Assembly (NCBI GenBank): GCA_036845225.1
Contig: DAIUEJ010000007.1
Span: 6,578 to 70,577, forward strand
Origin: Candidatus Anoxymicrobiaceae bacterium
Lineage (GTDB): Bacteria > Actinomycetota > Geothermincolia > Fen-727 > Anoxymicrobiaceae
DNA: 64,000 nucleotides
Direction of reading: 5' to 3'
The translations under genes were made by a program, and so were the position numbers. Shown piece after piece: positions 6,972-45,139 of the stretch. The notes below the pieces were generated by a model. The model was given only the letters and a program-made list of their open reading frames with translations, ran no database searches and was not told the DNA's origin. The number at the start of each line of letters is the position of its first letter. The stretch's first letter is position 1.

Positions 6972-7100
6972 GATACTGGCCGAGAGGTCGGTCTATAGAG
7001 GCAAGTAGGCTCAGGACTTTCTCGTATTGAGGGAATTCGGGCCGGACTCTCGAACTTGTTCTTCGAGAACGGCACATCGGCATCTTCCGCATCCGGGGGT

Positions 7101-31660: not shown

Positions 31661-31769
31661 AGCCAGGATGATGAAAATAATCCTTGCATAACTTGCGGAT
31701 TGCTGTAACATAAACTCCCATCAGTCACTGGTTCAACTTACCGCCTGGCGGTGAGGAGCGGTCTCTAAA

Positions 31770-34460
31770 GTGGCAGGTACCTCTATCCGTATAAACGGCA
31801 AAAGGGTTTCAGCCTACCCGGGCTCAAGGATCATCGACCTCGCTTGCGACCTCGGCGTTCCGATTCCAACCTTGTGCGATCACCCGTTGCTTGCGCCCGC
31901 GGGCTACTGCGGAGTCTGCGTTGTCGAGGACATCGCGAGCGGCAGGCTCGTGACCGCGTGCGACACGCCCGCCAGGCCGGGCATGGATATCAGGACCGAC
32001 TCTCCCCGGGCCCTCGAGGCGCGAAGGCGGACTCTCGAGCTCATCCTCACCAACCACCCCGAGACCTGCGTCATCTGCGAGAAAGGAAACGCCTGCAGGC
32101 TCCGCGATCTTTCCTCGAGCATCGGGCTCGCGCTCTCGAGCGAGAAACGCGTCGGGACCCTGCGCGGGATAGTGGACGCGAACCCGTTCATCCACCGCGA
32201 CCTCTCTAAGTGCATAGGCTGCCAGATATGCGTACGCGCCTGCCGGGAGATACAGGGCGCCGAAGCCGTCGAGTTCACGGGGATCGGCACGGGCAGCATG
32301 CCCCTGACGGCGGAGGACCACGAGCTGGCGGGCTCGGATTGCGAGCTGTGCGGGCTCTGCGTCACCATGTGCCCTGTCGGCGCCCTGATCGAAAAGCCGA
32401 GCAAGCACACCGGTACTGAGGACAGGAGGGCGAACGTCATCTGCCCGTACTGCGGGGTCGGATGCACCCTCGAGCTGAGGATCCGTGAGGACGCGATAGT
32501 CAGCGTGGGAGCGGGCGTCGAGGGCTCGGTCAACGGCCCGAGCCTGTGTGCCAAGGGCAGATACGGGCTGGGTTACGTCGGACACCCCGACCGGCTGAAG
32601 GTGCCCCTGGTACGCGAAGGCGACGAGCTCGTCGAGACGACGTGGGAGGAAGCACTGTCGCGCGTGGCGGCGAACCTGCATCGCATGGTCAAGGATCACG
32701 GCCCCGACTCTGTAGGCGTGCTGGCGTCGGCAAAAGCGACCAACGAGGAGAACTACCTCATCCAGAAATTCGCCCGCGCCTGCATCGGCACCAACAACGT
32801 CGACCACTGCGCGAGGTTGTGACACAGCCCCACCGTCGCCGGTCTGGCGGCAGCGTTCGGCAGCGGAGCCATGACCAATTCGCTCGAGGACCTTGCGGAC
32901 GCCGACGTCATCCTGCTCACAGGTAGCAACACCATCGAGAACCATCCCGTCATCGCGCAGATGATCAAGACCGCTGTCCTGTCGGGCGGCACCCGGCTCA
33001 TCGTGAGCGACCCGAGGGACATCTCGATGGCACGATACGCCGAGGTGAGGCTCAGCCCGAGGCCCGGAACGGACGTCGCATGGCTCAACGGGATGGCCAA
33101 CGTGATATTGAGCGAGGGGCTGGCCGACGAGCGCTTCATACGGGAGCGCACCGAGGGCTCCGACGGGTGGCGCAAGTCGGTGGAGCGCTATACCCCCGAG
33201 TTCGTGCAGAAGATAACGGGCATCAAGCCCGCGGACTTACGAAAGGCGGCTCGCCTCTACGCGTCGGCCGGCGCGGCCGCGATCTACTACGCCATGGGCA
33301 TCACCCAGCACTCGACGGGCACCGATAACGTCAAGGCGATCGCAAACCTCGCGATGCTCACGGGCAACATCGGCAGGCCGGGCACGGGAGTCAACCCGTT
33401 GCGCGGCCAGAACAACGTGCAGGGCGCCTGCGATATGGGCGCGCTGCCCAACGTCTTCCCCGGCTACCAGCGGGTCGACGATGACGTGGTCCGGGGCAAG
33501 TTTGAGAAAGCCTGGGGCGTGAAGCTCCCCTCGAAGCCGGGGCTCACCGTAACCGAGATGATTGGTGCCGCCGCCAAGGGCAAGCTCAAGGCAATGTACA
33601 TCGTCGGAGAGAACCCGGTGCTGACCGAGCCGGACGCAAACCATGCCGTCGCGGCTCTCGGAAAGCTCGACTTCCTCGTCGTCCAGGACATATTCCTCAC
33701 CGAAACGGCGGCTCTCGCCGACGTTGTGCTGCCCGGTGCGGCCTCGGTTGAAAAGGAAGGGACCTTCACCAACACGGAGCGCATGGTCCAGAGGTCGCGC
33801 GCGGCCGTGCCCGCTCCCGGAGAGGCGCGCAGCGATGCCGACATAATCTGCGCCGTCGCGGGCCAGATGAAGTGCGCCATGACCTGCGGCAGTCCCTCGG
33901 ACGTCATGGACGAGATAGCTTCTCTCACGCCTTCGTACGGCGGCATGTCTCACAGCCGGCTTGCGCGGCACGGCATGCGCTGGCCGTGCCCTGATGCAAA
34001 GCACCGCGGCACAAGGATAATGCACTCGCGCGAGTTCACCCGCGGCAAGGGCAGGTTCCATCCCATCGACTACATCGAGCCGGCAGAGATGCCGGACGTC
34101 GATTACCCGTTGATCCTGACCACGGGCAGGATGCTCTACCAGTATCACTCGGGCTCGATGTCGCGCCGCTCGGCCGCGCTGGACGAATACACTCCGGCCG
34201 GCTGGGCTGAGCTGAACCCGAGCGATGCCAGGAGGCTGGGCATACGAGAGGGCGAACCCATCGCTCTGACCTCGCGGAGAGGCTCGGTCCGCACGACCGC
34301 CAGGCTGAGCCGCCGCTCTCCGAAGGGGGTCGTCTTCATGAGCTTCCACTTCGCCGAGGAGGCGGTCAACAAGCTTACGAATCCAGCTCTCGACAAAGAG
34401 GGAAAGATACCTGAGTTCAAGGTCTGCGCGGTCAAGGTCGAGCCTGCCGCGCGCGAGTGA
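31770..34460 (+). CDS. fdhA: Selenocysteine-containing formate dehydrogenase alpha subunit (N-terminal 2Fe-2S/4Fe-4S plus Mo/W-bisPGD domain)
   Basis: In-frame TGA at 32820-32822 in DHCARL-U-HSPTVAGL; the two track ORFs join in frame; CPYCGVGC, RGQNNVQGACDMG and PEFKVCAV motifs. Confidence 0.93.
32823..32856 (+). promoter_or_regulatory. Bacterial SECIS element
   Basis: Hairpin GTCGCC-GGTCT-GGCGGC (32835-32851) 12 nt after the UGA, as in fdhF-type SECIS elements. Confidence 0.85.
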
Positions 34461-36118
34461 GGAGAGGCTTCTTGGATGTACGCGGTCCGGGCAGCGCGCT
34501 GGTCGAGCGGCTGCTCGAGGAGAGCGACAAGAAGGGATTCCTGGACCCCGCCTCCGTGGAGGCGGTGTCCCGCGAGTTCTCGATACCCGCGAGCAGGGCG
34601 TACTCCATCGCGGGACAACTGGAGCATTTCCACTTCGCGCCCACCCCCAAGGGGACGACAAGCGTCTGCGCCGGCCCGGCATGCGAGCTGGCAGGCTCGG
34701 CGGACGTCGCGAGCGCGCTGAAGGCCCTGCCGGGAGCGAACCCGATCCCTTTGCTCGGCAGCCCCATCTGGCACACGCCCGTCCTGGCGATGGTGCCGGG
34801 CAGGAGGGGATCGATGCCCCGCAGGGTGGGAGTAGAGGCGGCATCATCCATGGGCGATCTCCAGAGGTCTCCACTGGCGACAAGCGCGGAACCGGCGAAA
34901 GAGCTGCTTACCGGGAGCGGCGAGCTGCTGGGCGGCCTCAAGCGCCGGCGCTCGGCGGCTGACTACTTCAAGTCGGACGCGCGGCGGTTTGCCAATTTCA
35001 TGGAGCAGAATACGGGCGCGGAAGTCCGGAGCGACATCCGGTCCTCGCGAATCGTGGACACCGCGACCGGGCACGAGATCGCGGACATCATCGAGACGCT
35101 GGGGCGCTCCGAGGTGGCCGAGAGGATGGTCGTGTGCGACGCGGGCGGCCGGGAGCCGGAGAACGACGCCGCGCCGGTCCTCGCGTGGATCGACCCGATG
35201 GGCGTGGTCGAAGGGATGCTCCTCGCCGCGCACGCCTCGGGAGCCGGGCGCGCACTGCTATTTGTGCCGCACGAGCACGCCGGGCTCAGGGAGTCGTTCG
35301 CCAGGGCCTTGCGGGACCTCGAGAGCGAGAGCCTCTGGCCCGCGGTCGAGGTCGGGATGTTTTCCGGGCCTAACTTCGTGCCGACCGACCGCGAGATCGG
35401 GATTGCCTCGCTGTACGGCGGGCTGACCCTGAGCGAGGGAGCGACCCGCGCCTCCGAATCTCGCGCGCGGCTCTGGGGCGCTCACGTTCTGATGTCCGAC
35501 CCGGAGGCTTTCCTGAGGCTCTCGCGCAGGGCTTCGGGCGGCCCGAAGGCGACGGCGGCCAGGATCGTGTCGGTCGGGGGACGGGTGAAGGCGCCTTGCG
35601 TCGCCGAAGCCTCTCTCACCGCCACGGTGGGTGAATTCCTCGGCGAGTCCACCGGCGGGTTCCCCGAGGGCAGCGTCGTGAAAGCCCTCCACTTCGGAGG
35701 CGTCTACGGCGGCCCGCTCAGGCCTGTCGCATTGAACTCCAGGCTGCGAAGCCTCTTCGGCCGGCTGGACGGCGGAGGAAGCGGCCAGATACTCGTGATC
35801 GACCGGGACACCTGCATGGTCCGCTGGAGCGAATACTTCTCCTGGCTGGGCGAGCGTCTCTGCTGCGGAGCCTGCGTCACGGGAAGGCTCGGCCCTTCAT
35901 ACGTGAGGCGTCTCATCAGGAAGATCACCGACGGTCGCGGCGAGCTCGCCGACCTCGAGGACATACGGGCCACCATCGAGCTCATGAAGGAGACCGCGCT
36001 CTGTCCGCAGGGCGGCAGGGTGCTGAACCCCGTCCTGGTCTGCCTCGAGAACTTCTCCGGGGAGTTCGAGGAACACATCATCGAAAAGAAATGCCAGGCG
36101 CACGTCTGCTGGCCGTAG
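34457..36118 (+). CDS. Fused NuoE/NuoF (HydC/HydB)-like subunit, degenerate
   Basis: VCAGPAC (NuoE-like), DPMGVVEGML, GGVYGGPL, CCGACVTGR...ALCPQG, and HIIEKKCQAHVC; GTGA overlap with fdhA. Confidence 0.8.
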   Translation: MRRGFLDVRGPGSALVERLLEESDKKGFLDPASVEAVSREFSIPASRAYSIAGQLEHFHFAPTPKGTTSVCAGPACELAGSADVASALKALPGANPIPLLGSPIWHTPVLAMVPGRRGSMPRRVGVEAASSMGDLQRSPLATSAEPAKELLTGSGELLGGLKRRRSAADYFKSDARRFANFMEQNTGAEVRSDIRSSRIVDTATGHEIADIIETLGRSEVAERMVVCDAGGREPENDAAPVLAWIDPMGVVEGMLLAAHASGAGRALLFVPHEHAGLRESFARALRDLESESLWPAVEVGMFSGPNFVPTDREIGIASLYGGLTLSEGATRASESRARLWGAHVLMSDPEAFLRLSRRASGGPKATAARIVSVGGRVKAPCVAEASLTATVGEFLGESTGGFPEGSVVKALHFGGVYGGPLRPVALNSRLRSLFGRLDGGGSGQILVIDRDTCMVRWSEYFSWLGERLCCGACVTGRLGPSYVRRLIRKITDGRGELADLEDIRATIELMKETALCPQGGRVLNPVLVCLENFSGEFEEHIIEKKCQAHVCWP

Positions 36119-36154
36119 CGCCCGATCCGGCGAGTGGAACGCTAAGGAGTTGAG

Positions 36155-36814
36155 ATGAAGAGCATAACGGCTCAGAAGCCTCTCGAGGAACTGCTCGAGA
36201 TCCTGGGCACCGCGAGCAAAGTGTTCATCGCGGGGTGCGGCACCTGCCCGACCCTCATCGGCACGGGCGGCATCGACCAGGTGGCTGACCTCGCCGCTTC
36301 GCTCAAAGAAGCGGGAAAGCGTGTCACCGGGACAGTAGTGCTTCCCGTCGCGTGCGAGCCGCTGCCGTTCGAGGCGCGCCGTGAGTTCCTCGAGGGCACT
36401 TCCAAGGCGGACGCGGTCCTGGTGATGTCCTGCGCCTACGGCGTGCGACAGGTGGCGGACATCGTGGCCGGGCCGACGCTCCCGGCTCTCAACACGCTCT
36501 TCATCGGCCGCGAAGAGGGGCCGGGTGTCTTCGTGGAGGAATGCAGCCAGTGCGGCGATTGCGTACTCGGTCTGACCGCCGGGATCTGCCCGATCACCAG
36601 GTGCGCGAAGAGCCTGTTCAACGGGCCCTGCGGCGGCTCGGTCGCAGGCAAGTGCGAAGTCGACCCGAAGATCCCTTGCGGCTGGCAGATGATCTACGAC
36701 CGGCTCAAGGAGCTGGGCCGCCTCGAGCAGATGGAGGTAATCATCCCCATCAGGGACTGGAGCAAAGGCTGGTCCGGCGGGCCGAGGCGGTACTCGATGA
36801 ACGAGAAGAAATAA
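36155..36814 (+). CDS. metV: Methylene-THF reductase small Fe-S subunit (MetV)
   Basis: GCGTCPT, CSQCGDCVLGLTAGICPITRCAKSLFNGPCGG, KCEV...CGWQ. Confidence 0.88.
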   Translation: MKSITAQKPLEELLEILGTASKVFIAGCGTCPTLIGTGGIDQVADLAASLKEAGKRVTGTVVLPVACEPLPFEARREFLEGTSKADAVLVMSCAYGVRQVADIVAGPTLPALNTLFIGREEGPGVFVEECSQCGDCVLGLTAGICPITRCAKSLFNGPCGGSVAGKCEVDPKIPCGWQMIYDRLKELGRLEQMEVIIPIRDWSKGWSGGPRRYSMNEKK

Positions 36815-36821
36815 GAGGGCC

Positions 36822-38063
36822 ATGCGCTACGAACTGCTCTACGAGATATCCAAGCCGGTCATCGAGGCCGCGGGAGTCAGCAACGTCCTGAGCTCCATTG
36901 TCGAGAGCACCTCGAAGGGGACAGGCGCCAAAGGCTGCTCGCTTCTGACCCTCTCTCCGGACGGCAAGACGCTGGAGCACATGGTGTCCTACGGCCTCAG
37001 CGCAGATTACCTGAGCAAGGGCGAGATCGTGGTCGATGACGCGATCAGGGAGATGCTCGCGGGGCAGCCCATCAACATCGTGAACGTGGCCGACGACCCG
37101 CGCATCCAGTACTCCGAGCAGGCGCTGAAGGAAGGGATCTCGTCGCTCCTCTCGATCCCGGTCCGCGGGACGTCGGGCAACATCATCGGGCTGCTGCGGC
37201 TCTACATGTCCAAGGTGACGAAGTTCAAGCGCGGCGAGACGGACTTCCTCGTCTCGATCGCCGACCTGGGAGGGATAGTCCTCGAGAAAGCCGAGGCCTA
37301 CGACCGCCTGAAGACTGACGTGGATGACGCGAAGTCCGAGATAGAGAAACTCGAAGATGACCGCGAGATGTTTCTGCAGTTCCTCTCCATGGTGGCGCAC
37401 GACCTGAAAGCGCCGGTCGGCGCGGTCGAGAGCTACCTCAAGGTCATGCTGCGGGGCTCGCCGGGCCCCCTGACGGAGAAACAGGAGCGTTGGCTCGAGC
37501 GCAGCATCGTGCGGCTCGACAGCATGCTCGAGCTGATAAGCGACCTGCTGGACGTGTCGCGCCTGGAGACCGGCCAGGTGGCTCCTGAGATGGAGATGAC
37601 CTCGCTCAGGGGCGTCCTGGAGAACTGCGTGGAGACGGCCAGGGGGTTGGCCGACCCCAGGGGCGTCCGCATAATCGCGGACATCGATGGCGATTTCCCC
37701 GCGGTCTACGCGTCGGGGAGGCGCCTGGCGCAGGTCATCAACAACCTGGTATCGAACGCGGTGAGGTATACGCCGGAGGACGGGACCATCGAGATGCGCG
37801 CCGGTCTCGAGGGCGACCACATGCTGGTCGTCGTCGAGGACTCGGGCTCCGGGATCAAGGCCGAGGCGATGCCGAAGATATTTGATGACTTCTTCAGGGG
37901 CGACCACGAGACCGAGGGCACCGGACTGGGGCTGTCGATATGCAAGCGCGTCGTGGAACTTCATGGCGGCAGGATCTGGGCCGAGAGCCCCGTGCCTGGC
38001 AGCACCGACGGCACGAGGTTCTCCTTTACCATTCCTATGAGGCAAGCCGGGAGCGTGGGATAG
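36822..38063 (+). CDS. GAF-domain sensor histidine kinase (soluble)
   Basis: GAF region, VAHDLKAP H-box, NNLVSNA, DSGSG, GTGLGL. Confidence 0.93.
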   Translation: MRYELLYEISKPVIEAAGVSNVLSSIVESTSKGTGAKGCSLLTLSPDGKTLEHMVSYGLSADYLSKGEIVVDDAIREMLAGQPINIVNVADDPRIQYSEQALKEGISSLLSIPVRGTSGNIIGLLRLYMSKVTKFKRGETDFLVSIADLGGIVLEKAEAYDRLKTDVDDAKSEIEKLEDDREMFLQFLSMVAHDLKAPVGAVESYLKVMLRGSPGPLTEKQERWLERSIVRLDSMLELISDLLDVSRLETGQVAPEMEMTSLRGVLENCVETARGLADPRGVRIIADIDGDFPAVYASGRRLAQVINNLVSNAVRYTPEDGTIEMRAGLEGDHMLVVVEDSGSGIKAEAMPKIFDDFFRGDHETEGTGLGLSICKRVVELHGGRIWAESPVPGSTDGTRFSFTIPMRQAGSVG

Positions 38064-38084
38064 ACTCAAAAGGGGTTTATTAAG

Positions 38085-39002
38085 ATGAAAGCCGGGACGA
38101 ATCTGGAGAAAGTGCTCGAGGCGGGCAATTTCGCGGTGACCGCGGAGATCGGCCCCCCCAAGGGCGGGTCGGCAAAGGTGATCGAGTCGAAGGGCGAGAC
38201 GCTGCGGCATGCCGCGGACGCGTTCAACGTGACCGATAACCAGACCGCGGTGGTTCGGATGTCCAGCCTGGCCGCGTGCGGCATCTTGAAGAGCATGGGC
38301 CTGGACCCTGTCATGCAGATGCTCTGCCGCGACCGCAACCGGATCATGCTGCAGGGGGACGTGTGCGGGGCGGTGGCGCTCGGCGTCGGCAACCTCCTGT
38401 GTCTCACTGGCGACCACGTCAAGTTTGGAAACCATCCCGAGGCCAAGGTCGTGTTCGATATCGACTCGGTGCAGCTCATCCAGGCGGTCAAGACCATGCG
38501 CGACGAGGGCAAGTTCATAAGCGGCGAGGAGATCGCGGGGCCGATCCCGATGTTCATCGGCGCGGTCGAGAACCCGTACGCGGACCCCTTCGAGTTCCGC
38601 ACGGCGAGGCTCGACAAGAAGGTCAGGGCCGGCGCCGACTTCATCCAGACGCAGGCGGTGTACGACGTCGGAAAGTTCGCTAAGTGGATGGACGAGATCT
38701 GCGCAGCGGGTATCGATCAGCGGACTCACATTCTCGCCGGAATCATCCCGGTGAAGGCCGTCGGCATGGCTCGCTACATGAGGGACTACGTCTCGGGCGT
38801 CGAGATCCCCGATTCGATGATCAAGAGACTGGAGAAGTCAAAGGACGTCAGGGAAGAAGGGATTCAGGTCATCCTCGATATAATAGAAGAGGTCAAGCTG
38901 ATACCCGGTGTGCACGGAATACATATCCAGGCCGTCGGTTGGGAGGATATCGTCCCCGAGATCGTAGAGCGGGCGGGCCTGCTACCGAGACCGATGCTTT
39001 AG
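38085..39002 (+). CDS. metF: Methylenetetrahydrofolate reductase
   Basis: VTAEIGPPKG, NVTDNQ, CRDRNRI, LCLTGDH, GADFIQTQ, GIHIQA. Confidence 0.92.
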   Translation: MKAGTNLEKVLEAGNFAVTAEIGPPKGGSAKVIESKGETLRHAADAFNVTDNQTAVVRMSSLAACGILKSMGLDPVMQMLCRDRNRIMLQGDVCGAVALGVGNLLCLTGDHVKFGNHPEAKVVFDIDSVQLIQAVKTMRDEGKFISGEEIAGPIPMFIGAVENPYADPFEFRTARLDKKVRAGADFIQTQAVYDVGKFAKWMDEICAAGIDQRTHILAGIIPVKAVGMARYMRDYVSGVEIPDSMIKRLEKSKDVREEGIQVILDIIEEVKLIPGVHGIHIQAVGWEDIVPEIVERAGLLPRPML

Positions 39003-39015
39003 GGAGGGGAGCAAA

Positions 39016-39420
39016 TTGGCAGCGAAGATACTGGTCGTTGACGACGATCCCGACATCAGGGACGTGCTCGAGGAGTTGCTGGTGGGCGAGGGGTACGAAG
39101 TGGTGACGGCCAACGACGGCGTCCAGGGGCTAGCGGCGATCAAGAAAGAGAATCCCGACATGATGATCCTGGACCTGCTGATGCCTCAGTTGGACGGGTT
39201 CGGCGTGTGCAAGCAGTTGCAGGACCCTCGCTGGTCGAAGTGGAAGGGCATGCCCATCCTCATCCTGACCTCGGTCCGCGAGGAGGTCAGCCAGAGGCGC
39301 TACGAGCTCGAGACCGGCTTGAGCCTGGACGTCGACGACTACGTCGAGAAGCCGATAGATCCCGACGTGGTGCTGGAACGGGTCAAGAACCTGCTGGCTC
39401 GCAAAGGCATTGATGTATAA
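39016..39420 (+). CDS. Single-domain response regulator
   Basis: ILVVDDD, ILDLLMPQLDG, LTS, YVEKP; no output domain. Confidence 0.92.
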   Translation: MAAKILVVDDDPDIRDVLEELLVGEGYEVVTANDGVQGLAAIKKENPDMMILDLLMPQLDGFGVCKQLQDPRWSKWKGMPILILTSVREEVSQRRYELETGLSLDVDDYVEKPIDPDVVLERVKNLLARKGIDV

Positions 39421-39459
39421 TAGGAATCCGTTCAATACGGGCTAGAGCAGGAGGATGGA

Positions 39460-39834
39460 ATGAAGAAAGTACTTCTGGTTGATGACGACAAGGACTTCGT
39501 AGAGTCCACGAAAGCTGTGCTCGAGGAGAAATACGAGGTAATCGTGGCCTACGACGGCGACGAGGGAATCAAGACCGCCAAGGCCGAGATGCCCGACCTC
39601 ATCATCCTGGACGTGATAATGCCTACGGAAGACGGCTTCAGTGCAGCAGAGGAGATGAAGAACGATCCCGACATCTCCATGATCCCGATAATAATGCTGA
39701 CCAGCTTCTCGACGCGCGGGGTCGAGACGAACATCCCGCGGAGCAAGGGCATGGACCTCCAGTCCGAGGACTACATAGAGAAGCCGGTCGAGCCGGACGT
39801 CCTGCTCGCGCACGCGGAGAAGCTGCTCAGCTAG
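39460..39834 (+). CDS. Single-domain response regulator
   Basis: VLLVDDD, ILDVIMP, LTS, YIEKP. Confidence 0.92.
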   Translation: MKKVLLVDDDKDFVESTKAVLEEKYEVIVAYDGDEGIKTAKAEMPDLIILDVIMPTEDGFSAAEEMKNDPDISMIPIIMLTSFSTRGVETNIPRSKGMDLQSEDYIEKPVEPDVLLAHAEKLLS

Positions 39835-39885
39835 ATCCGCCCGGCGGGTGAGTGCCCGGGCGCGCGCGATAAGCCGGGCACCGGT

Positions 39886-40602
39886 CTAGACCAGCACCTC
39901 GTACTCAGTGATTTTCAGAGGTTCTCCAAGAAGAGTCGTGCCTGTGCGCATGAAGTTGTGGAAGAGGCCGTCAAAGATCGCCTTGGCCTCGTCGTGCAGG
40001 TAATAGATCGGCACCGCCGGGTTCACATCATCGTAGAAGAACCCCGTCAGGATCCCACCGCGCGGGTAATCCAGCCGGGCCCCGTGTATCTCGTGCAGCG
40101 CCGGAAGGTCCAGGTGCTCGAAGAGCTGCATGAAGGAACGCTTGATGGTGCTCACCCCGCCGCACAGGCCCGCCTTGAACCCGTAATCGATAAGGGCTGA
40201 GATCATCGTCGTGGAGACGAAGTGGCGCGGTAGCGGGTTGTCTCCGGGTCGTTTGATGGCGGTGAGGCGGCTCACCTCGCGGACGCCCTCGCGAGGGCAA
40301 GGGGCAAGCTGAGTCGGCGTCTCGAACTCGTAGTAGACCGATTCGGTCGGGAGCTCCTCGGAATCGATGAGACGAGCGGCGGCAAGCAGCGCTCCGTTCG
40401 CGTACGTGCCGAAGTAGATACTGGCCAGGTCGTATTCGTCGTCGAATATCGCCAGGTCGCCTGGGATGTACCCGCGGCGCTGGTACTCATTCTTGATGAG
40501 GTCCTTGACCTCGCGAAGCTCGCCCTCTTTCGCGACCAGGCCGGAGACTATCTCGATATGCTCGCCGCGATACTCAATGCCGAGCCTCTTAACGGGTTCC
40601 AT
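39886..40602 (-). CDS. N-acyl amino acid synthase (FeeM)/AHL-synthase-like GNAT-fold protein
   Basis: EYQRRGYI...FDDEYD...YFG...AAARLI and EVSRLT, a LuxI/FeeM-like pattern. Confidence 0.62.
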   Translation of the reverse strand: MEPVKRLGIEYRGEHIEIVSGLVAKEGELREVKDLIKNEYQRRGYIPGDLAIFDDEYDLASIYFGTYANGALLAAARLIDSEELPTESVYYEFETPTQLAPCPREGVREVSRLTAIKRPGDNPLPRHFVSTTMISALIDYGFKAGLCGGVSTIKRSFMQLFEHLDLPALHEIHGARLDYPRGGILTGFFYDDVNPAVPIYYLHDEAKAIFDGLFHNFMRTGTTLLGEPLKITEYEVLV

Positions 40603-40649
40603 TCAAAGCCTTTCGGTCGTGCCGGTCTGTCGCACACGCGTAGATTACC

Positions 40650-42125
40650 TTACTCCGTCGGCCTCATGTCAACAATGCGCATGGCCTTAAGCGTCACCGT
40701 CGGGTCGAATATCTCGGACATCTCCACGAAATCGATCTTCGCCGTCATCTCCACGGCCTTGCGCATGCGCTCCTGGAGCTCCACCTCGATCTCGCCCTCG
40801 GCGCGCGACGGCATCGCCGCCACCTTGATGATGAGCTCGTCCCCGGAGTACGGGTCGTTCGGATCCTTGGTGGTCAGGACGATCTGGTACTCGGCGACAC
40901 CTGCGGTGTTCGCGATCTCGTCGCGCATGATCTCCGGGTTTATCAGCGTCCCCTTGAGGTTGATGAGCTCGCTGGTGCGGCTCGCGTAGGTGCTGCCGAC
41001 GGCGACCTGCATCCGGACGCTGTTGCGCCCGCAGTGCGGGCACGTCTCGTGCGTGATGGCGGCGAAGTCCCCGATGACATAGCGCAAGAGGACTGTCCCG
41101 GTGCGCACGAGGTGTGTGATGCAGAGCAGTCCCACTTCGCCGTCGGGAACGCGCTCACCGGTCTCCTCGTCCACGACCTCGAAGAAATACGAGCCGGGGT
41201 CGGGCGAGTGGCAGCCCGAGAATTCCTCGCACTCGGACAGGGCTCCCTGCATCTCGGTGAAGCCGTACGAGTTCGAGATGAACGGGCGGTCGGCGCCCAT
41301 GTTCTCGAGCCGCATCCGGATGTCGTCGCGCATGCCCTTCGGCGCGGCCTCACCCAGCAGCTGGCACCCGAGGATGTGCGAATAGTCGCGGCCCTGCTCC
41401 TCCGCCTTCATTATCACCCGGCGCACGAAGCTCCCGATCCCAACCAGGACATCCGCCTCGGTGTACTCGATGAGCTCGATGGCGTAGTCCATGCTTCGGT
41501 GAATGTGGAACTCCTCGTGCGGCATGCCCGTGCAGGCGAACGCGCCCTGCCCCAGCGGCGACATGGTGATGATATCGCGCGCCCGGAAGAACCCGATGTG
41601 AGGGATAGGGCCGAGCGGGAAGAGGTTCACCGTGTGCATGCCTGAGATGGCTCCCCCGATCTTCATAGCCCGGAAGATGAGCTGATAGGTCGCGTAGGCG
41701 TCGTTGATGGTGTTGTAGAAGGGCGTTGGCACGCCAGTCGTGGTGCCGGTAGTGTAGGTGACCTCCCAGAGCCAGTCGTAGAGGGTCGCGTTGGTCAGCT
41801 TCAGCTTGAAAGCCTCAGGGTCTGCCATGTAGTCGCGCTTGTAGGTCAGCGGCAGCGCCTTGAGGTCGTCGACGGTCTGGATCTTCGCCGGGTCGATCTT
41901 CTCTCGCTTGAAGAGCTCCTTGTAGTAGGCGCTGCCGTCGGCGATGCGCTCCATCTCGCGGCGGAGGTTCTTGTTCTGCAGCGCGAGGATATCGTCCTTT
42001 GAGAAGAAGTTAGGGTCGTCTTTGTCCTCGGCGTACAGGGGCTCGCTCGCGATGAACTTCAGGGTGTTCTCGGGAGTGACCTCGAACGCGGTCATCGAGC
42101 CGTCGGGGTTTCGCATCCGGAGCAT
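40650..42125 (-). CDS. Phenylacetate--CoA ligase (PaaK)-like adenylating enzyme
   Basis: LPLTYKRD, YTTGTTTGVP, YGFTE, EVVDEETGE, LRYVIGD, LINLKGTLINP. Confidence 0.85.
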   Translation of the reverse strand: MLRMRNPDGSMTAFEVTPENTLKFIASEPLYAEDKDDPNFFSKDDILALQNKNLRREMERIADGSAYYKELFKREKIDPAKIQTVDDLKALPLTYKRDYMADPEAFKLKLTNATLYDWLWEVTYTTGTTTGVPTPFYNTINDAYATYQLIFRAMKIGGAISGMHTVNLFPLGPIPHIGFFRARDIITMSPLGQGAFACTGMPHEEFHIHRSMDYAIELIEYTEADVLVGIGSFVRRVIMKAEEQGRDYSHILGCQLLGEAAPKGMRDDIRMRLENMGADRPFISNSYGFTEMQGALSECEEFSGCHSPDPGSYFFEVVDEETGERVPDGEVGLLCITHLVRTGTVLLRYVIGDFAAITHETCPHCGRNSVRMQVAVGSTYASRTSELINLKGTLINPEIMRDEIANTAGVAEYQIVLTTKDPNDPYSGDELIIKVAAMPSRAEGEIEVELQERMRKAVEMTAKIDFVEMSEIFDPTVTLKAMRIVDMRPTE

Positions 42126-42187
42126 GGCGTTCCTCCTTCGTGCGGGTGTCGCGTGCCGGGAACAAATATATCAGAGCCACCGCAATG

Positions 42188-42307
42188 ACGTCGTTCGTTT
42201 TCCACTTTTCTTTACACTTTTTCAGCGCGAACAATCTGCGCCACTGGGGTCTGACCCCGCTGGCGCAGCCTCGAGAAGTGTAAAGAAAAGTGGAAAACGA
42301 ACGACGT
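42188..42307. mobile_element. 120-bp MITE-like unit: 32-bp perfect terminal inverted repeats around a GGGGTCTGACCCC hairpin
   Basis: ACGTCGTTCGTTTTCCACTTTTCTTTACACTT (42188-42219) is the exact reverse complement of 42276-42307; the centre holds TGCGCCACT-GGGGTCTGACCCC-GCTGGCGCA (42237-42267). Confidence 0.75.
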
Positions 42308-42314
42308 AACCTGG

Positions 42315-43334
42315 TTACTTCATCACTTTCTTGAGCCACGTCGAGACCGCCGGGATGATCTCGTCCACGAAGTCCGTCATCACCAGGTGGTATGCCTCCG
42401 GCAGGTACAGGAACTCCTTCTCGCAGGTCAGCCGGCCGTAGACGCGACGCACGTAATCTTCCGGGAAGATATTGTCGTGCCCCGCATGGACGACCATCAC
42501 GGGTGTCTCTATCTCCTCGACCTTGCGCGCCATCGGGGTCGTGGACAGGGACGCCAGCGCGCGCAGGCTGATGGCACGGACCACCAGCGGGTCTTCTTTC
42601 ATGAAGGCATTGAGGTCGGGGATGAAGCGGCTCTCCTCCGCTCCGAGGTTGAGGTAGAGCCATATCGGGGTCCGCAGCTCGCCGAGCGGAGACTGCGTCA
42701 GAGGAAGCAGGTACGGCAGCAGCGGCATCGCGGGCCGGAACAGTCCGGGCCACCGCGTGATGCGCTCGTTGTCCGGCTCGTCCGGGGCGATGAGGTTGTG
42801 GCACACAGCGGCTTTCAGGCGCGGGTCGGCCGCCGCGGCGTAGAAGGCGACCATGCCGCCCTGGCTGGAGCCGGAGACGGCAACCTTGTCGTTGTATGTC
42901 TCGATGGCGTGGCTTGTTACCTCGCGTGCGTCCTCGACCTGTGAGCCCAGAGTGTAGCTGCCCCGCTTGCCGCTGCTCCGGCCGTGCCCCTTGGGGTCGA
43001 ACCCGACAACGTTGAAACCCTGCCGGCTGAGCTTGTACATGAACTCCAGATAGAGCAGCGCGTAAACCGCCGTCCCCGGGATGAACACCATCACGGGGTC
43101 CTCCGGTTTCGATTCAAAGTGGTACAGGTGGAGGTCGCGGCCCTCGAGGCGCAGCACCTCGTCCTTCCAGGTGCCCCATAGTCCTTCCTGGCCGAAGCGC
43201 CCCATGAGCGCCTTGCCGTACGCGTCGGTCTCCTCGACGGGCGGGACGGGCCTGTTCATCTCGTAGTAGCTGTAGCCGGCCCATCCAAGCATCCCTGACG
43301 CGGCTGCAGCGGCGGCCTTCTTCTTGAACGCCAT
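42315..43334 (-). CDS. Alpha/beta hydrolase (monoacylglycerol lipase/lysophospholipase-like)
   Basis: DPKGHGRSSGKRG, GSSQGG nucleophile, AGHDNI, AYH; N-terminal hydrophobic anchor. Confidence 0.88.
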   Translation of the reverse strand: MAFKKKAAAAAASGMLGWAGYSYYEMNRPVPPVEETDAYGKALMGRFGQEGLWGTWKDEVLRLEGRDLHLYHFESKPEDPVMVFIPGTAVYALLYLEFMYKLSRQGFNVVGFDPKGHGRSSGKRGSYTLGSQVEDAREVTSHAIETYNDKVAVSGSSQGGMVAFYAAAADPRLKAAVCHNLIAPDEPDNERITRWPGLFRPAMPLLPYLLPLTQSPLGELRTPIWLYLNLGAEESRFIPDLNAFMKEDPLVVRAISLRALASLSTTPMARKVEEIETPVMVVHAGHDNIFPEDYVRRVYGRLTCEKEFLYLPEAYHLVMTDFVDEIIPAVSTWLKKVMK

Positions 43335-43499
43335 CAACAGGCTCCTTTCGCAAGACATGAACGGTCAGCGAGAATCTCTCACATGCCGGTTGTTCCCGCA
43401 AGTTGGCGGACGTAATCCAGGTGACCTGCGAACAAGGTGAGCAGGCAGAGCGCCGCAAAGACTATTGTGTGACCGTCATATGGAGACTGGGGGTATGAC

Positions 43500-44144
43500 A
43501 TGTACTTCGCATACACCGAAGCGGCCGAGCAAGCCCTCCGTAACCTGAGGAGCACCGCAAACTTCCAGTGGTTCCTGATCCCGCTGCTGGCGTTCTGCTT
43601 CTACGTCTATTTCGTGGAGGTCGAGCGCAAGAACTGGAACGTCATCATGGCGGGCCTGGCGTTCTGGGGGCTCGAGTGGTTCCTGGAGATCTGCAACGCG
43701 CTGTGACTGCGCGGCACCCACCACGCCGCCGTGTGGTTGGCGCCGGGGAGGTCGGCGTACCTGATCATGGTCGGGCTGACTATCGAGATAAGCATGATGT
43801 TCCTCGTGGCGGGCGTGATCCTCGCGAAGAGCCTGCCGGCCGACAAGAAGATGAAGATCCGGGGGATCCCGAACAGGTGGGTCCTCATCGTGGCGTACTC
43901 GCTGCTGTTCGTCTTCATCGAGGTGATACTGCACTTCTGGGGCGTGCTGGTGTGGACCTACTGGTGGTGGAACTGGCCGTTCGTGCTGCTCATCATCCTC
44001 ATCGGGTACATGCCTTACATGATCTTCTCGTTCTGGATACACGACATGCCGTCGCTGAAGAAGAAGATCGTCATCGTCTCGGGCGTGTATGCGCTTGATA
44101 TCGTGCTGCTGGTCGTGTTCATGGGAATACTGAAGTGGATATAA
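43500..44144 (+). pseudogene. Membrane protein interrupted by an in-frame TGA at 43704-43706
   Basis: The track ORFs 43500-43706 and 43731-44144 are in the same frame and continuous (CNAL*LRGTHHAAVWLAPGRSAY). Confidence 0.75.
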
Positions 44145-44180
44145 CTTCTCCCTCCCCCTTCAGCGGTGGGGCTTGATGTC

Positions 44181-44217
44181 CCCTCCCCCTTGAGGGGGGA
44201 GGGTCGGGGTGGGGGTG
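44181..44217. repeat. CCCTCCCCC/GGGGGAGGG palindromic repeat (second copy)
   Basis: Identical inverted copy of 31624-31660; a degenerate partial copy precedes it at about 44148. Confidence 0.88.
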
Positions 44218-44236
44218 CAATGAAAGGGAGGCGAGA

Positions 44237-45013
44237 GTGACCACACTGAAAGCCGTGCTGGCCCTGATGGACTTCAGCGACAGTCATCCGAGGCTGATCA
44301 AGTACCTGGCGCGCCCGATCGCGAACGCGCCGGTGTTGTCGGCGAGGCTGCCGGTGATGGTCCGCGCGTACATGGGGGCGACCTCCTTCGACATCCACGA
44401 CGTCGACGTGGAGAACGGGCGGTACGGAATAGGCGGGGTGGACGAGATCATGTTCGGCTCGGAGTTGCTGCGGGTCCTGCACCTGGTGCTCGCACGGATG
44501 GGGCCTGCGGAGCAGGAGCGGGCGCTCTATGACATCGGGTTCCTGACAGGCTATTACGAGGCAAAGGACGCCGTGAGGAAAGGGCGCTGGGCGCCGCGCG
44601 TGCTGGTCCCCCTGATAACGAGCGCGGGCTTGCTCGAGCGTGTGCGCAGCGACCCGACCATGGCGGAGTTCCTCAACAAGGTGCTCGCGACCGAGTCCCG
44701 CATCATCATCAATGAAGGCGGCTGGGGGAGCGTGGAGGAGTTCGACTTCAGCTCGACCCCGCTCCGGGCGGTCCTCGCGAACTCGCAGGAGGCTGCCTGG
44801 ATGGGGCCATCCGACAGCCCGGTCTGCCACTACTTCGCTGGCGGAGCGGCGGGACACGCGAGCGCGATCACGGGTGAGTTCTTCGAGGGCAGGGAGGTCG
44901 AGTGCGCCGCCGCCGGGGCGCGGAGGTGCGTCTTCGAGATGACGCCGGCTGTCGAGAGCGAAGCCGAACTCGAGCGCCGTGAGATGGCTGCTGCGCTGCT
45001 GGCGCTTCGCTGA
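44237..45013 (+). CDS. V4R-domain protein
   Basis: GWGSVE, PVCHYFAGGAAG...EVECAAAGARRCVFE V4R signature. Confidence 0.82.
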   Translation: MTTLKAVLALMDFSDSHPRLIKYLARPIANAPVLSARLPVMVRAYMGATSFDIHDVDVENGRYGIGGVDEIMFGSELLRVLHLVLARMGPAEQERALYDIGFLTGYYEAKDAVRKGRWAPRVLVPLITSAGLLERVRSDPTMAEFLNKVLATESRIIINEGGWGSVEEFDFSSTPLRAVLANSQEAAWMGPSDSPVCHYFAGGAAGHASAITGEFFEGREVECAAAGARRCVFEMTPAVESEAELERREMAAALLALR

Positions 45014-45139
45014 GCAAGGTGACCGGATTGGTCTAGGTGACACAGCGGAGATGCATTTCGATGAAACGCACCACCGCTGCAAGATTTGAGGCGCCAATGC
45101 GCCGTGCGGTCAGGTTAAAACCTGCCCCCTCCCTCTTGT

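What the first reader, a model, noticed from the sequence alone, without database searches (positions are those of the whole stretch)
39886..42125. PaaK-like CoA ligase coupled to a FeeM/LuxI-like acyltransferase: candidate signal or N-acyl-amide synthase pair
Seen: two co-directional genes 47 bp apart, converging on the kinase/RR operon. Established: some LuxI-family enzymes (RpaI, BjaI) use acyl- or aryl-CoA, and FeeM makes N-acyl amino acids. Inference: the ligase supplies an unusual acyl-CoA for a diffusible signal. No LuxR is adjacent, so the receptor might be a kinase (speculative).
Basis: partly seen in the sequence, partly recalled or inferred. Interest (0 to 1): 0.6.

Follow-up and report, generated by a model that had tools for sequence, protein, structure and literature searches.

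The report
FeeM/LuxI-like acyltransferase with optional ligase neighbour
An uncultured anaerobic actinobacterium carries a very divergent relative of the enzymes that make N-acyl amino acids and acyl-homoserine-lactone signals; the acid-activating ligase next to it is a real but dispensable neighbour, so this is a new member of a known enzyme kind, not a proven new signalling pair.

Summary
Both genes exist as described: a 238-aa ORF (39886-40602, -) and a 491-aa ORF (40650-42125, -), 47 bp apart, converging on a kinase/response-regulator operon.

**The 238-aa protein.** It belongs to the FeeM/LuxI branch of the GNAT fold. It misses Pfam's cut-off itself, but its AlphaFold model matches FeeM, LasI, BjaI and RpaI best. 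A profile of its wider family hits solved AHL synthases by sequence and keeps their DxxD, R and ExSR motifs.

**The ligase.** It is an intact PaaK-family adenylating enzyme.

**The pairing is not fixed.**
- Adjacency is seen directly in 2 of 8 lineages with readable upstream DNA, and inferred in 2 more.
- Two genomes with the acyltransferase have no ligase orthologue.
- Ligase orthologues occur in many relatives that lack the acyltransferase, within their own SpoIIE-phosphatase/small-membrane-protein context.

**What is invariant.** The acyltransferase always sits tail to tail with the FdhA-NuoEF-like-MetV-kinase-MetF-RR-RR operon. A sister family keeps that operon without the acyltransferase, so the kinase does not need its product.

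**Verdict.** It is most likely an N-acyl amino acid or acyl-amide synthase, fed by the ligase only where the two are linked. The product and the acyl donor are unknown.

Earlier notes of this scan report FeeM-type/PaaK-type pairs on other DNA; I did not test that lead.

The parts
39886..40602 (-). 238-aa FeeM/LuxI-fold N-acyltransferase (P0001). It has an extra N-terminal beta-hairpin (residues 1-22) and a C-terminal helix-strand extension (about 203-238).
   Evidence: ORF. Pfam FeeM scores only 18.9 bits against a cut-off of 27. AF2 model pLDDT 85. Fold matches to FeeM, LasI, BjaI and RpaI. Family profile hits RpaI, EsaI and BjaI by sequence, and Y40 D55 D58 R77 E109 R112 are invariant.
40603..40649 (-). 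47-bp gap between the ligase stop and the acyltransferase start. It has a GAAAGG ribosome-binding site and no terminator-like hairpin, so co-transcription is plausible.
   Evidence: The gap sequence is conserved in the 84%-identical relative L031, which also keeps a ligase-like 3' end.
40650..42125 (-). 491-aa PaaK-family (COG1541-type) adenylate-forming ligase (P0002), with GAAGGAGGA before its ATG.
   Evidence: Pfam AMP-binding scores 36.9 bits against a cut-off of 29.9. NCBIfam PaaK, FlxY and DVU_1553 hits are far below their cut-offs. Full-length alignment to Bacteroides PaaK 4R1L, E=1.5e-25. Orthologues are all 491 aa.
42188..42307 (.). 120-bp element with perfect 32-bp terminal inverted repeats, filling most of the gap between the hydrolase stop and the ligase start. 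It marks the upstream breakpoint of the ligase's synteny.
   Evidence: sequence. In other lineages a small membrane-protein gene lies at this position.
42315..43358 (-). 347-aa alpha/beta hydrolase (Hydrolase_4, monoacylglycerol-lipase-like) with a hydrophobic N-terminus. It is a neighbour only in this strain-level lineage and is not part of the pair.
   Evidence: Present in L029 and L030 only, absent next to every other ligase or FeeM-like gene.
39835..39885 (.). 51-bp convergent gap between the acyltransferase and the last response regulator. It folds into a GC-rich hairpin, a probable two-way terminator.
   Evidence: -33.7 kcal/mol, z = -2.3.
31770..39834 (+). Convergent operon: FdhA (in-frame TGA at 32820-32822), NuoEF-like, MetV, GAF histidine kinase, MetF, and two single-domain response regulators. 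It is the only invariant neighbour of the acyltransferase.
   Evidence: Tail-to-tail adjacency in every locus with enough flank. The operon occurs without the acyltransferase in a sister family.

Best explanation
The 238-aa gene encodes a divergent member of the FeeM/LuxI branch of GNAT acyltransferases. These enzymes take an acyl group from a phosphopantetheine thioester (acyl-CoA or acyl-ACP) and put it on the amino group of a small molecule. By analogy with FeeM and TyzA, the most likely product is an N-acyl amino acid or a related N-acyl amide. The upstream gene encodes an intact PaaK-family adenylating ligase that turns a carboxylic acid into an acyl-AMP and then an acyl-CoA. In this genome the two are probably co-transcribed, so the ligase may supply the acyl donor. 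The partnership is optional, however: the acyltransferase clade exists and stays conserved in genomes with no such ligase, and the ligase family is much wider than the acyltransferase clade. The acyltransferase must therefore also be able to use a general acyl-thioester pool. Shown here: gene integrity, fold, motifs, gene order and distribution. Inferred: the chemistry, the acceptor, the acyl donor and any signalling role.
For: Fold and family:
- AF2 model pLDDT 85, pTM 0.84.
- Foldseek top hits are FeeM 2G0B (E=1.8e-8), LasI, EsaI and RpaI.
- VIA-align gives LasI Z 13.9, BjaI 12.8, RpaI 12.7 and FeeM 12.4 over 175-180 residues, against about 140-150 residues for ordinary GNATs.
- A 55-sequence family profile hits RpaI (E=9.4e-7), EsaI, BjaI, MesI and TofI by sequence, aligning DxxD, R and ExSR. 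These are invariant in the family.
- 51 of 55 family members hit Pfam FeeM and 40 of 55 hit Autoind_synth. The ESM Atlas neighbours are FeeM clusters.

Ligase:
- AMP-binding domain above Pfam's cut-off, and a full-length PaaK alignment with the P-loop and YGxTE motifs present.

Linkage in this genome:
- 47-bp gap with a ribosome-binding site and no terminator.
- The same ligase-then-acyltransferase order, with a 76-bp gap, occurs in the most divergent clade member L040 (58% and 75% identity).
- A ligase 3' remnant sits beside the 84% relative L031.
- Two further lineages share a contig length with a ligase cluster: 3738 and 8037 bp.

Precedent:
Against: - P0001 itself is below Pfam's FeeM cut-off and gives no Autoind_synth hit. 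Membership rests on fold and on transitive profile evidence.
- No ligase lies next to the acyltransferase in lineages L002/G003, L003/G007, L004/G011, L032/L033, G006 and L037/L038.
- G003 and G007 (94% and 93% complete) have no ligase orthologue; their best hits are 29-33% identical.
- Strict orthologues (75% identity or more) occur in 3 of 5 FeeM-like-bearing genomes and 3 of 12 FeeM-like-lacking genomes of the family. My hand calculation gives a one-sided Fisher p of about 0.2, and the genomes are related, not independent.
- A 60-65% identical sister group is present in about 30 further relatives without the acyltransferase.
- No ligase-acyltransferase fusion appears among the four proteins over 400 aa in the best 150 acyltransferase relatives, which I scanned (of 171 found), nor among the best 120 ligase relatives.
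- Nothing identifies the acceptor or the acyl group.
Confidence: 0.6

Rival explanations
1. Dedicated signal-synthase pair. The PaaK-like ligase activates an unusual aryl or branched acid to its CoA ester. The FeeM/LuxI-like enzyme converts this specifically into a diffusible N-acyl signal, as RpaI and BjaI do with p-coumaroyl- and isovaleryl-CoA.
For: - Co-directional genes with a 47-bp gap and no terminator.
- The pair is retained in two directly seen and two inferred lineages, despite heavy rearrangement around it.
- CoA-dependent AHL synthases are among the best sequence and fold matches.
- One distant family member lies next to a FadD-type ligase.
- Earlier notes of this scan describe FeeM-type/PaaK-type pairs in other phyla. 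This is a lead I did not test.
Against: - The pairing is absent in most lineages, and two genomes have no orthologue.
- Ligase orthologues are widespread without the acyltransferase, with about 50% identical homologues in Asgard archaea and Deltaproteobacteria.
- In this family the ligase's own conserved context is a GAF-PAS-SpoIIE phosphatase, a 143-aa membrane protein and a paralogous ligase.
- No fusions were found.
- A near-identical strain assembly (L030) carries a 1-nt deletion in the ligase while the acyltransferase is intact. This may be an assembly error.
Confidence: 0.2
2. LuxI-type solo: the enzyme uses S-adenosylmethionine as acceptor and makes an acyl-homoserine lactone, like the LuxI solos recently reported in Actinomycetota.
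For: - LuxI-type signature positions are kept: DxxD, R77, E109-x-S111-R112.
- LasI, BjaI and RpaI score as well as or better than FeeM by VIA-align.
- LuxI solos next to redox and metabolic genes, without LuxR, are described in Actinomycetota (PMC13136126).
Against: - No Pfam Autoind_synth hit for P0001.
- The family's near-invariant Arg at alignment position 36 is not Arg in the window protein (Ile), nor in nearly all of the 22 clade sequences aligned. The position aligned to the LuxI Trp is Tyr. That this Arg and this Trp are the LuxI N-terminal Arg and Trp is partly my own knowledge.
- No LuxR-type autoinducer-binding domain exists in the genome.
- Family fusions and neighbours (SAM-methyltransferase, ThiF, aminotransferase) point to N-acyl amino acid chemistry.
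Confidence: 0.12
3. The product is a ligand for the neighbouring GAF-domain signalling proteins: the operon's GAF histidine kinase, or the GAF-PAS-SpoIIE phosphatase found next to the gene in some lineages. It would tune formate/methyl-branch metabolism.
For: - The acyltransferase is tail to tail with the kinase operon in every locus with flank, while its upstream side varies at least five ways.
- Within the family the kinase orthologue and the acyltransferase occur in exactly the same 5 of 17 genomes.
- GAF-SpoIIE genes lie next to FeeM-family genes in L037, L040 and the distant L102.
Against: - Kinase orthologues (45-60% identical) occur in 21 of 24 genomes of a sister family with no FeeM-like gene. 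Six loci read from that family and a neighbouring one hold the whole operon.
- The 5-of-17 co-occurrence is that of a whole accessory block, including a second MetF copy, so it does not single out the kinase.
- The genes converge and are not co-transcribed.
- GAF/PAS proteins are very numerous in these genomes (60 first-look candidates), so chance adjacency is not rare.
Confidence: 0.08

Closest known systems
FeeM, type I long-chain N-acyl amino acid synthase (PDB 2G0B; Pfam PF21926)
   Same: It is the best Foldseek match (E=1.8e-8, TM 0.65-0.70 on the target). Most of the protein's wider family hits this Pfam model. Both are GNAT-type enzymes with a LuxI-like elaboration.
   Different: Identity is only 14-16%. 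P0001 itself scores 18.9 bits against a cut-off of 27, over 60 residues. It is about 50 residues longer, with an N-terminal hairpin and a C-terminal extension. No ACP gene is nearby, whereas FeeM works with a dedicated ACP. FeeM's use of acyl-ACP is from the literature (PMC10404671, citing Van Wagoner & Clardy 2006).
LuxI-family AHL synthases, especially the CoA-dependent RpaI, BjaI and MesI (PDB 6WN0, 5W8A, 6WNS)
   Same: The family profile hits them by sequence (RpaI E=9.4e-7), with DxxD, R and ExSR aligned. Z is 12.2-13.9 over about 178 residues. An adjacent CoA ligase would fit a CoA-dependent donor.
   Different: There is no Autoind_synth hit for the protein itself and no LuxR-type receptor in the genome. 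The family's near-invariant Arg at alignment position 36 is not Arg in almost any sequence of this clade, and the Trp-aligned position is Tyr. SAM use is untested.
TyzA (Rv2336) of Mycobacterium tuberculosis and OxzA
   Same: [quoted passage not shown] A distant family member in another actinobacterial family sits directly before a ThiF gene, like tyzA and tyzB.
   Different: No ThiF or nitroreductase-type oxidase accompanies the window gene. Only lineages L032 and L033 have a divergent nitroreductase neighbour. TyzA is 322 aa. I could not compare the sequences because no TyzA sequence was available to the tools.
LuxI solos of Actinomycetota (RhdI of Rhodococcus kroppenstedtii; PMC13136126)
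   Same: A solitary LuxI-like gene with no LuxR, placed among redox and metabolic genes in Actinomycetota.
   Different: Those proteins were found with LuxI HMMs and shown to be needed for AHL production. This clade fails the Pfam LuxI model, is confined to one family of uncultured anaerobes, and its product is unknown.
Phenylacetate-CoA ligase PaaK (PDB 4R1L, 2Y27; TIGR02155)
   Same: End-to-end alignment (E=1.5e-25) with the P-loop, YGxTE and C-x-CGR segments. The AMP-binding domain is above Pfam's cut-off.
   Different: It scores 91 bits against an equivalog cut-off of 646. It is about 55 residues longer. No paa catabolic genes are nearby. It belongs to an unnamed orthologous group of anaerobes, including Asgard archaea at about 50% identity.

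Membership tests
FeeM-type N-acyl amino acid synthase (Pfam PF21926) | Scores above the Pfam gathering threshold | tested here: not met
   P0001 scores 18.9 bits against a cut-off of 27, E=1.4e-3, over residues 32-91 only. However, 51 of 55 members of its wider family match at E<=1e-3, the best at 1.5e-15, so homology is supported transitively.
FeeM-type N-acyl amino acid synthase (Pfam PF21926) | GNAT core with the FeeM/LuxI-type elaboration | tested here: met
   2G0B is the top Foldseek hit. VIA-align Z 12.4, 175 residues, rmsd 3.9.
FeeM-type N-acyl amino acid synthase (Pfam PF21926) | Transfers an acyl group from acyl-ACP or acyl-CoA to an amino acid | not testable with these tools
   Needs an enzyme assay or LC-MS.
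LuxI-family AHL synthase (Pfam PF00765) | Matches the Autoind_synth model | tested here: not met
   P0001 has no hit at E<=0.01. 40 of 55 wider-family members match at E<=1e-3.
LuxI-family AHL synthase (Pfam PF00765) | Conserved N-terminal and catalytic residues (Arg, Phe, Trp block; DxxD; Arg; ExSR). The list is from my own knowledge of the family. | tested here: inconclusive
   D55, D58, R77, E109, S111 and R112 are present and aligned to RpaI and EsaI. The Arg of the first block is not Arg in the window protein (Ile) or in nearly all of the 22 clade sequences aligned, and the Trp-aligned position is Tyr.
LuxI-family AHL synthase (Pfam PF00765) | Cognate LuxR with an autoinducer-binding domain | tested here: not met
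   PF03472 has no match in the 96%-complete genome, while the control genome rings. LuxI solos are known, so this does not exclude AHL synthesis.
Phenylacetate-CoA ligase PaaK (TIGR02155 / NF041878) | Scores above the equivalog cut-off | tested here: not met
   91 bits against 646, and 121 bits against 700.
Phenylacetate-CoA ligase PaaK (TIGR02155 / NF041878) | ANL adenylate-forming architecture of the PaaK subtype | tested here: met
   AMP-binding scores 36.9 bits against 29.9. AMP-binding_C_2 scores 21.4 bits, below its cut-off of 25. Full-length alignment to 4R1L and 2Y27.
Phenylacetate-CoA ligase PaaK (TIGR02155 / NF041878) | Sits in a paa catabolic gene cluster | tested here: not met
   Neighbours are the acyltransferase, a hydrolase and a V4R protein. 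In relatives they are a SpoIIE phosphatase, a small membrane protein and a paralogous ligase.
Obligate ligase-acyltransferase gene pair | Adjacency conserved across the acyltransferase clade | tested here: not met
   Adjacent in the window lineage (with the L031 remnant) and in L040. Inferred for P0017/P0204 and P0030/P0200. Absent in six other lineages.
Obligate ligase-acyltransferase gene pair | Phyletic co-occurrence | tested here: not met
   Strict orthologues occur in 3 of 5 FeeM-like-bearing and 3 of 12 FeeM-like-lacking genomes of the family. The looser orthologue group is in 36 of 61 relatives, against 5 of 61 for the acyltransferase.
Obligate ligase-acyltransferase gene pair | Fused forms exist | tested here: inconclusive
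   No AMP-binding fusion among the four proteins over 400 aa that I scanned in the best 150 acyltransferase relatives. Those fusions are to methyltransferases and an aminotransferase. No FeeM domain appears in the best 120 ligase relatives. The 'longer' search found nothing, which is weak evidence.

The most novel reading that the evidence does not exclude
A LuxR-independent acyl-signal circuit in an anaerobic actinobacterium. The ligase and the FeeM/LuxI-like enzyme would make an unusual N-acyl (possibly aryl-acyl) amide. GAF-domain signalling proteins would sense it: the GAF histidine kinase inside the formate dehydrogenase-MetVF operon, or the GAF-PAS-SpoIIE phosphatase that flanks the gene in basal lineages. 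This would couple population or metabolite signalling to C1 (formate/methyl-branch) metabolism.
Probability: 0.07. Interest if true: 0.75.

Novelty: new member of a known kind. Interest (0 to 1): 0.35.

Why it matters
FeeM/LuxI-type enzymes make lipoamino acids and quorum signals, and they are almost unexplored in deep-branching, uncultured Actinomycetota. An 83%-identical ligase homologue is named 'Candidatus Geothermincolia', which suggests this is that class.

This clade is narrow: 33 protein clusters, found in 5 of 61 related genomes. It is strongly conserved and too divergent for Pfam to call.

It is always parked at the end of an accessory formate dehydrogenase-MetVF-kinase operon. That placement makes it a concrete candidate for a metabolite or lipid tied to C1 metabolism.

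The practical lesson for annotation is that the adjacent PaaK-like ligase should not be read as proof of a dedicated signal pathway. The ligase belongs to a much wider, independent family.

Tried and rejected
I could not read the contigs of most metagenomic homologues. This includes the two lineages where I infer ligase adjacency only from equal contig lengths.

**Searches that gave nothing useful**
- A profile of the close clade alone against PDB sequences gave only chance hits. The wider profile was needed.
- The genome-contig scan found only 3 loci, and the metagenome scan only 12.
- The 'longer' search for fused ligases found nothing, but its length window (861 aa and above) would miss a fusion of about 730 aa. 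The 'near' search covers that size and shows none in the best 120.
- Cluster look-up of distant relatives gave no organism names.

**Ideas tested and dropped**
- I asked whether the nitroreductase beside the gene in L032/L033 is the orthologue of the nitroreductase that follows the operon in the sister family. It is not (E=3e-4 over 51 residues).
- The alpha/beta hydrolase upstream is not a third member of the pair. It is present only in the window's own strain-level lineage and is unrelated to the hydrolase at the ligase's ancestral site.
- orf176 (43568-44098) is not the missing small membrane protein.
- The ligase tree is a star and cannot say whether adjacency is ancestral or convergent. 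The acyltransferase tree places SpoIIE-linked lineages basally, but with modest support (84/79).
- The ACP- versus CoA-donor test by the basic surface helix (PMC4234381) is inconclusive. K154 is invariant, and K/R159 and R163 are common but not in the window protein.

**Jobs I chose not to run**
- I did not run complex prediction, because I make no binding claim.
Full report
**1. Observation**

The ORF list shows 39886-40602 (-) of 238 aa and 40650-42125 (-) of 491 aa, separated by 47 bp. Downstream, 51 bp away and on the other strand, ends a single-domain response regulator (39460-39834). It closes a plus-strand operon of these genes:
- FdhA, in two frames joined by an in-frame TGA at 32820-32822
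- a NuoEF-like protein
- MetV
- a GAF histidine kinase
- MetF
- two receiver-only response regulators

Upstream of the ligase lie a 120-bp element with perfect 32-bp inverted ends (42188-42307) and an alpha/beta hydrolase (42315-43358). The gap between the two genes has a ribosome-binding site and no terminator-like hairpin. The convergent gap folds into a strong hairpin.

**2. The 238-aa protein**

On its own it barely touches Pfam FeeM: 18.9 bits against a cut-off of 27, over 60 residues. It also barely touches NCBIfam LBL_2463.

It has 33 cluster-level homologues at 58-99% identity, nearly all 237-238 aa, with 67 invariant columns. An exhaustive profile search found 171 more distant clusters.

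Members of this wider family hit Pfam FeeM (51 of 55), Acetyltransf_5 (42 of 55) and Autoind_synth (40 of 55). Ten columns are invariant, including D55, D58, R77, E109 and R112.

The family profile hits solved AHL synthases by sequence: RpaI at E=9.4e-7, then EsaI, BjaI, MesI and TofI. The DxxD, Arg and ExSR motifs are aligned.

The AlphaFold model has pLDDT 85. By Foldseek it matches FeeM best, then LasI, EsaI and RpaI. VIA-align gives LasI Z 13.9, BjaI 12.8, RpaI 12.7 and FeeM 12.4 over 175-180 residues. Ordinary GNATs align over about 140-150 residues. The ESM Atlas neighbours are FeeM clusters.

So it is a FeeM/LuxI-branch N-acyltransferase with an extra N-terminal hairpin and a C-terminal extension.

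Two points argue against a classical LuxI. The family's near-invariant Arg at alignment position 36 is not Arg in the window protein (Ile) or in nearly all of the 22 clade sequences. The genome has no LuxR-type autoinducer-binding domain.

**3. The ligase**

Pfam AMP-binding is above its cut-off. NCBIfam FlxY, PaaK, DVU_1553-family and F390-synthetase models all hit far below their cut-offs.

It aligns end to end with Bacteroides PaaK 4R1L (E=1.5e-25), with the P-loop, YGxTE and C-x-CGR segments in place.

Its relatives are stand-alone proteins of about 490 aa. One 83% homologue is named 'Candidatus Geothermincolia'. Homologues about 50% identical come from Asgard archaea and Deltaproteobacteria. 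None of the best 120 carries a FeeM domain.

**4. Is the pair conserved?**

I read every locus I could fetch.

The acyltransferase lies tail to tail with the response regulator end of the Fdh-MetVF-kinase operon in every locus with enough flank. These are three MAG contigs, and nine of the twelve metagenome contigs (L029, L030, L032, L033, L035-L040, of which L039 begins inside the gene).

Its upstream side varies:
- ligase: the window and its near-identical L029 and L030, and L040
- SpoIIE phosphatase plus a small membrane protein, without the ligase: L037 and L038
- nitroreductase and thiolase-like genes: L032 and L033
- thiolase: L004
- beta-helix protein: L003
- zinc-ribbon protein: L002

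The 84% relative L031 keeps the intergenic sequence and a ligase-like 3' end.

Two further lineages share an exact 'longest contig' length and source with ligase clusters. P0017 (70%) matches P0204 at 3738 bp, and P0030 (66%) matches P0200 at 8037 bp. The same is true for the verified L040 pair, P0037 and P0206 at 118788 bp. I take that as indirect evidence of adjacency.

Whole-genome searches give the other side. Of the five genomes with the acyltransferase:
- G011 and G006 carry the ligase orthologue (75-76%) on other contigs.
- G003 and G007 (94% and 93% complete) have none; their best hits are 29-33% identical.

Strict orthologues (75% or more) also occur in G013, G015 and G016, which lack the acyltransferase. 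A 60-65% sister group occurs in about 30 more relatives.

Within the family the count is 3 of 5 against 3 of 12. This is not significant: my hand calculation gives a one-sided Fisher p of about 0.2, and the genomes are not independent.

**5. The ligase's own context**

In G011, G006, G013, G016 and L040 the order is: GAF-GAF-PAS-SpoIIE phosphatase (divergent), a conserved 143-aa two-helix membrane protein, the ligase, and then, in three of them (G011, G006, G013), a convergent paralogous ligase.

In the window's genome that site (contig C32) holds the paralogue, another hydrolase, the membrane protein and the phosphatase. The ligase itself is at the acyltransferase locus.

In G015, which has the closest orthologue (79%), the upstream neighbour is a V4R protein 53% identical to the one at 44237-45013.

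L040 joins both contexts: phosphatase, membrane protein, ligase, acyltransferase, operon.

The simplest reading is one ancestral neighbourhood that has broken at different points. Linkage between ligase and acyltransferase was kept in a minority of lineages. The trees do not settle the order of events.

**6. The kinase idea**

Within the family, the kinase orthologue and the acyltransferase occur in exactly the same 5 of 17 genomes.

These genomes carry the whole operon as an accessory block, with a second MetF (86-91% identical). Nearly every genome (15 of 17) also has a MetF about 40% identical.

In the sister family f6, 21 of 24 genomes have a kinase orthologue (45-60% identical). Six loci that I read, from f6 and a neighbouring family f7, hold the same operon in full. 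No FeeM-like gene is found in any of those genomes. The kinase therefore does not depend on this enzyme's product.

The invariant adjacency may reflect co-inheritance of a block. A regulatory tie is not excluded.

**7. Hints from distant relatives**

Fusions in the wider family are to SAM-methyltransferases (three) and a class I/II aminotransferase (one).

The wider family is rare in the phylum: 10 of 401 genomes. That tally includes one unpublished genome, G133. No other claim rests on it.

In a low-GC actinobacterial family, distant members sit next to a methyltransferase, a ThiF gene, a FadD-type ligase, a GAF-SpoIIE phosphatase and GGDEF/HD-GYP proteins.

These neighbours fit N-acyl amino acid chemistry: methyl esters, and oxazolones as in TyzABC (PMC10404671). 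They also show that an activating ligase is one of several optional partners.

**8. Comparison with what is known**

FeeM, LuxI-type synthases (including CoA-dependent ones) and TyzA are the closest known enzymes. LuxI solos next to redox genes in Actinomycetota were described in 2026 (PMC13136126).

Earlier notes of this scan report FeeM-type synthases locked to PaaK-type ligases in other phyla. I did not test whether P0002 belongs to those partner families, so this stays a lead.

**9. Verdict**

The genes and the fold assignment are real. The enzyme is a new, divergent member of a known kind.

The ligase is a plausible supplier of acyl-CoA in this genome but not an obligate partner. The kinase-receptor idea is weakened.

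Confidence: about 0.85 that it is a FeeM/LuxI-branch N-acyltransferase; about 0.35 that the ligase feeds it here; about 0.6 for the combined statement.

Noticed in passing
window 42188-42307: A 120-bp element with perfect 32-bp terminal inverted repeats lies between the hydrolase stop and the ligase start. This is exactly where the ligase's synteny with its usual upstream neighbour (a small membrane-protein gene) is broken.
   Followed up: partly
own genome contig C32:1-9000 (L079); L022, L023, L081, L082, L040: A conserved module in this family: GAF-GAF-PAS-SpoIIE (PP2C) phosphatase, a divergent 143-aa two-helix membrane protein with no Pfam family, a PaaK-like ligase and, where the flank was read (G011, G006, G013), a convergent paralogous PaaK-like ligase. 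In the window's genome the first ligase slot holds an Abhydrolase_3 esterase instead.
   Followed up: partly
L030:3981-5455 compared with window 40650-42125: A near-identical strain assembly has a single-G deletion at about codon 79 of the ligase, which splits the frame. The acyltransferase next to it is 100% identical. This could be a real frameshift or an assembly error.
   Followed up: partly
L102-L105 (genomes G201, G111, G163): In a low-GC actinobacterial family, bona fide FeeM-family genes (Pfam 55-69 bits) sit in four contexts. These are: GAF-SpoIIE then FeeM then SAM-methyltransferase then GGDEF/HD-GYP; GGDEF/HD-GYP then FeeM then ThiF (tyzAB-like); FeeM divergent from a FadD-type ligase and a B12-radical SAM gene; and FeeM then methyltransferase.
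   Followed up: partly
window 32820-32822: An in-frame TGA joins the two FdhA frames (31770-32822 and 32871-34460) in the context ..CARL-TGA-HSPT... It is a probable selenocysteine codon. An earlier finding on this window already covers it.
   Followed up: no
window 46829-46863 and 45066-45130: Short intergenic words (about 35 and 65 bp) flanking glpK recur at 75-94% identity on many contigs of the two same-genus genomes. They look like a dispersed small repeat family.
   Followed up: no
window 31700-45100: A DNA search of the two same-genus genomes (83-85% complete) finds glpK at 82% identity. It finds no orthologue of the stretch holding the Fdh-MetVF-kinase operon, the acyltransferase, the ligase, the hydrolase and V4R; only paralogue-level hits appear. 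The whole stretch may be an accessory block.
   Followed up: partly
L089 (G015:C21) 6201-8708; window 44237-45013: The closest ligase orthologue (79%) has a V4R-domain protein directly upstream, 53% identical to the window's V4R protein. The window's V4R gene lies 2 kb upstream of the ligase on the other strand. This is a possible ligand-binding partner of the ligase.
   Followed up: no
window 43568-44098: The 176-aa ORF between the hydrolase and V4R has no family hit and matches only in the same strain-level contigs. Long Arg-rich antisense frames overlap this region, so its coding status is doubtful.
   Followed up: no
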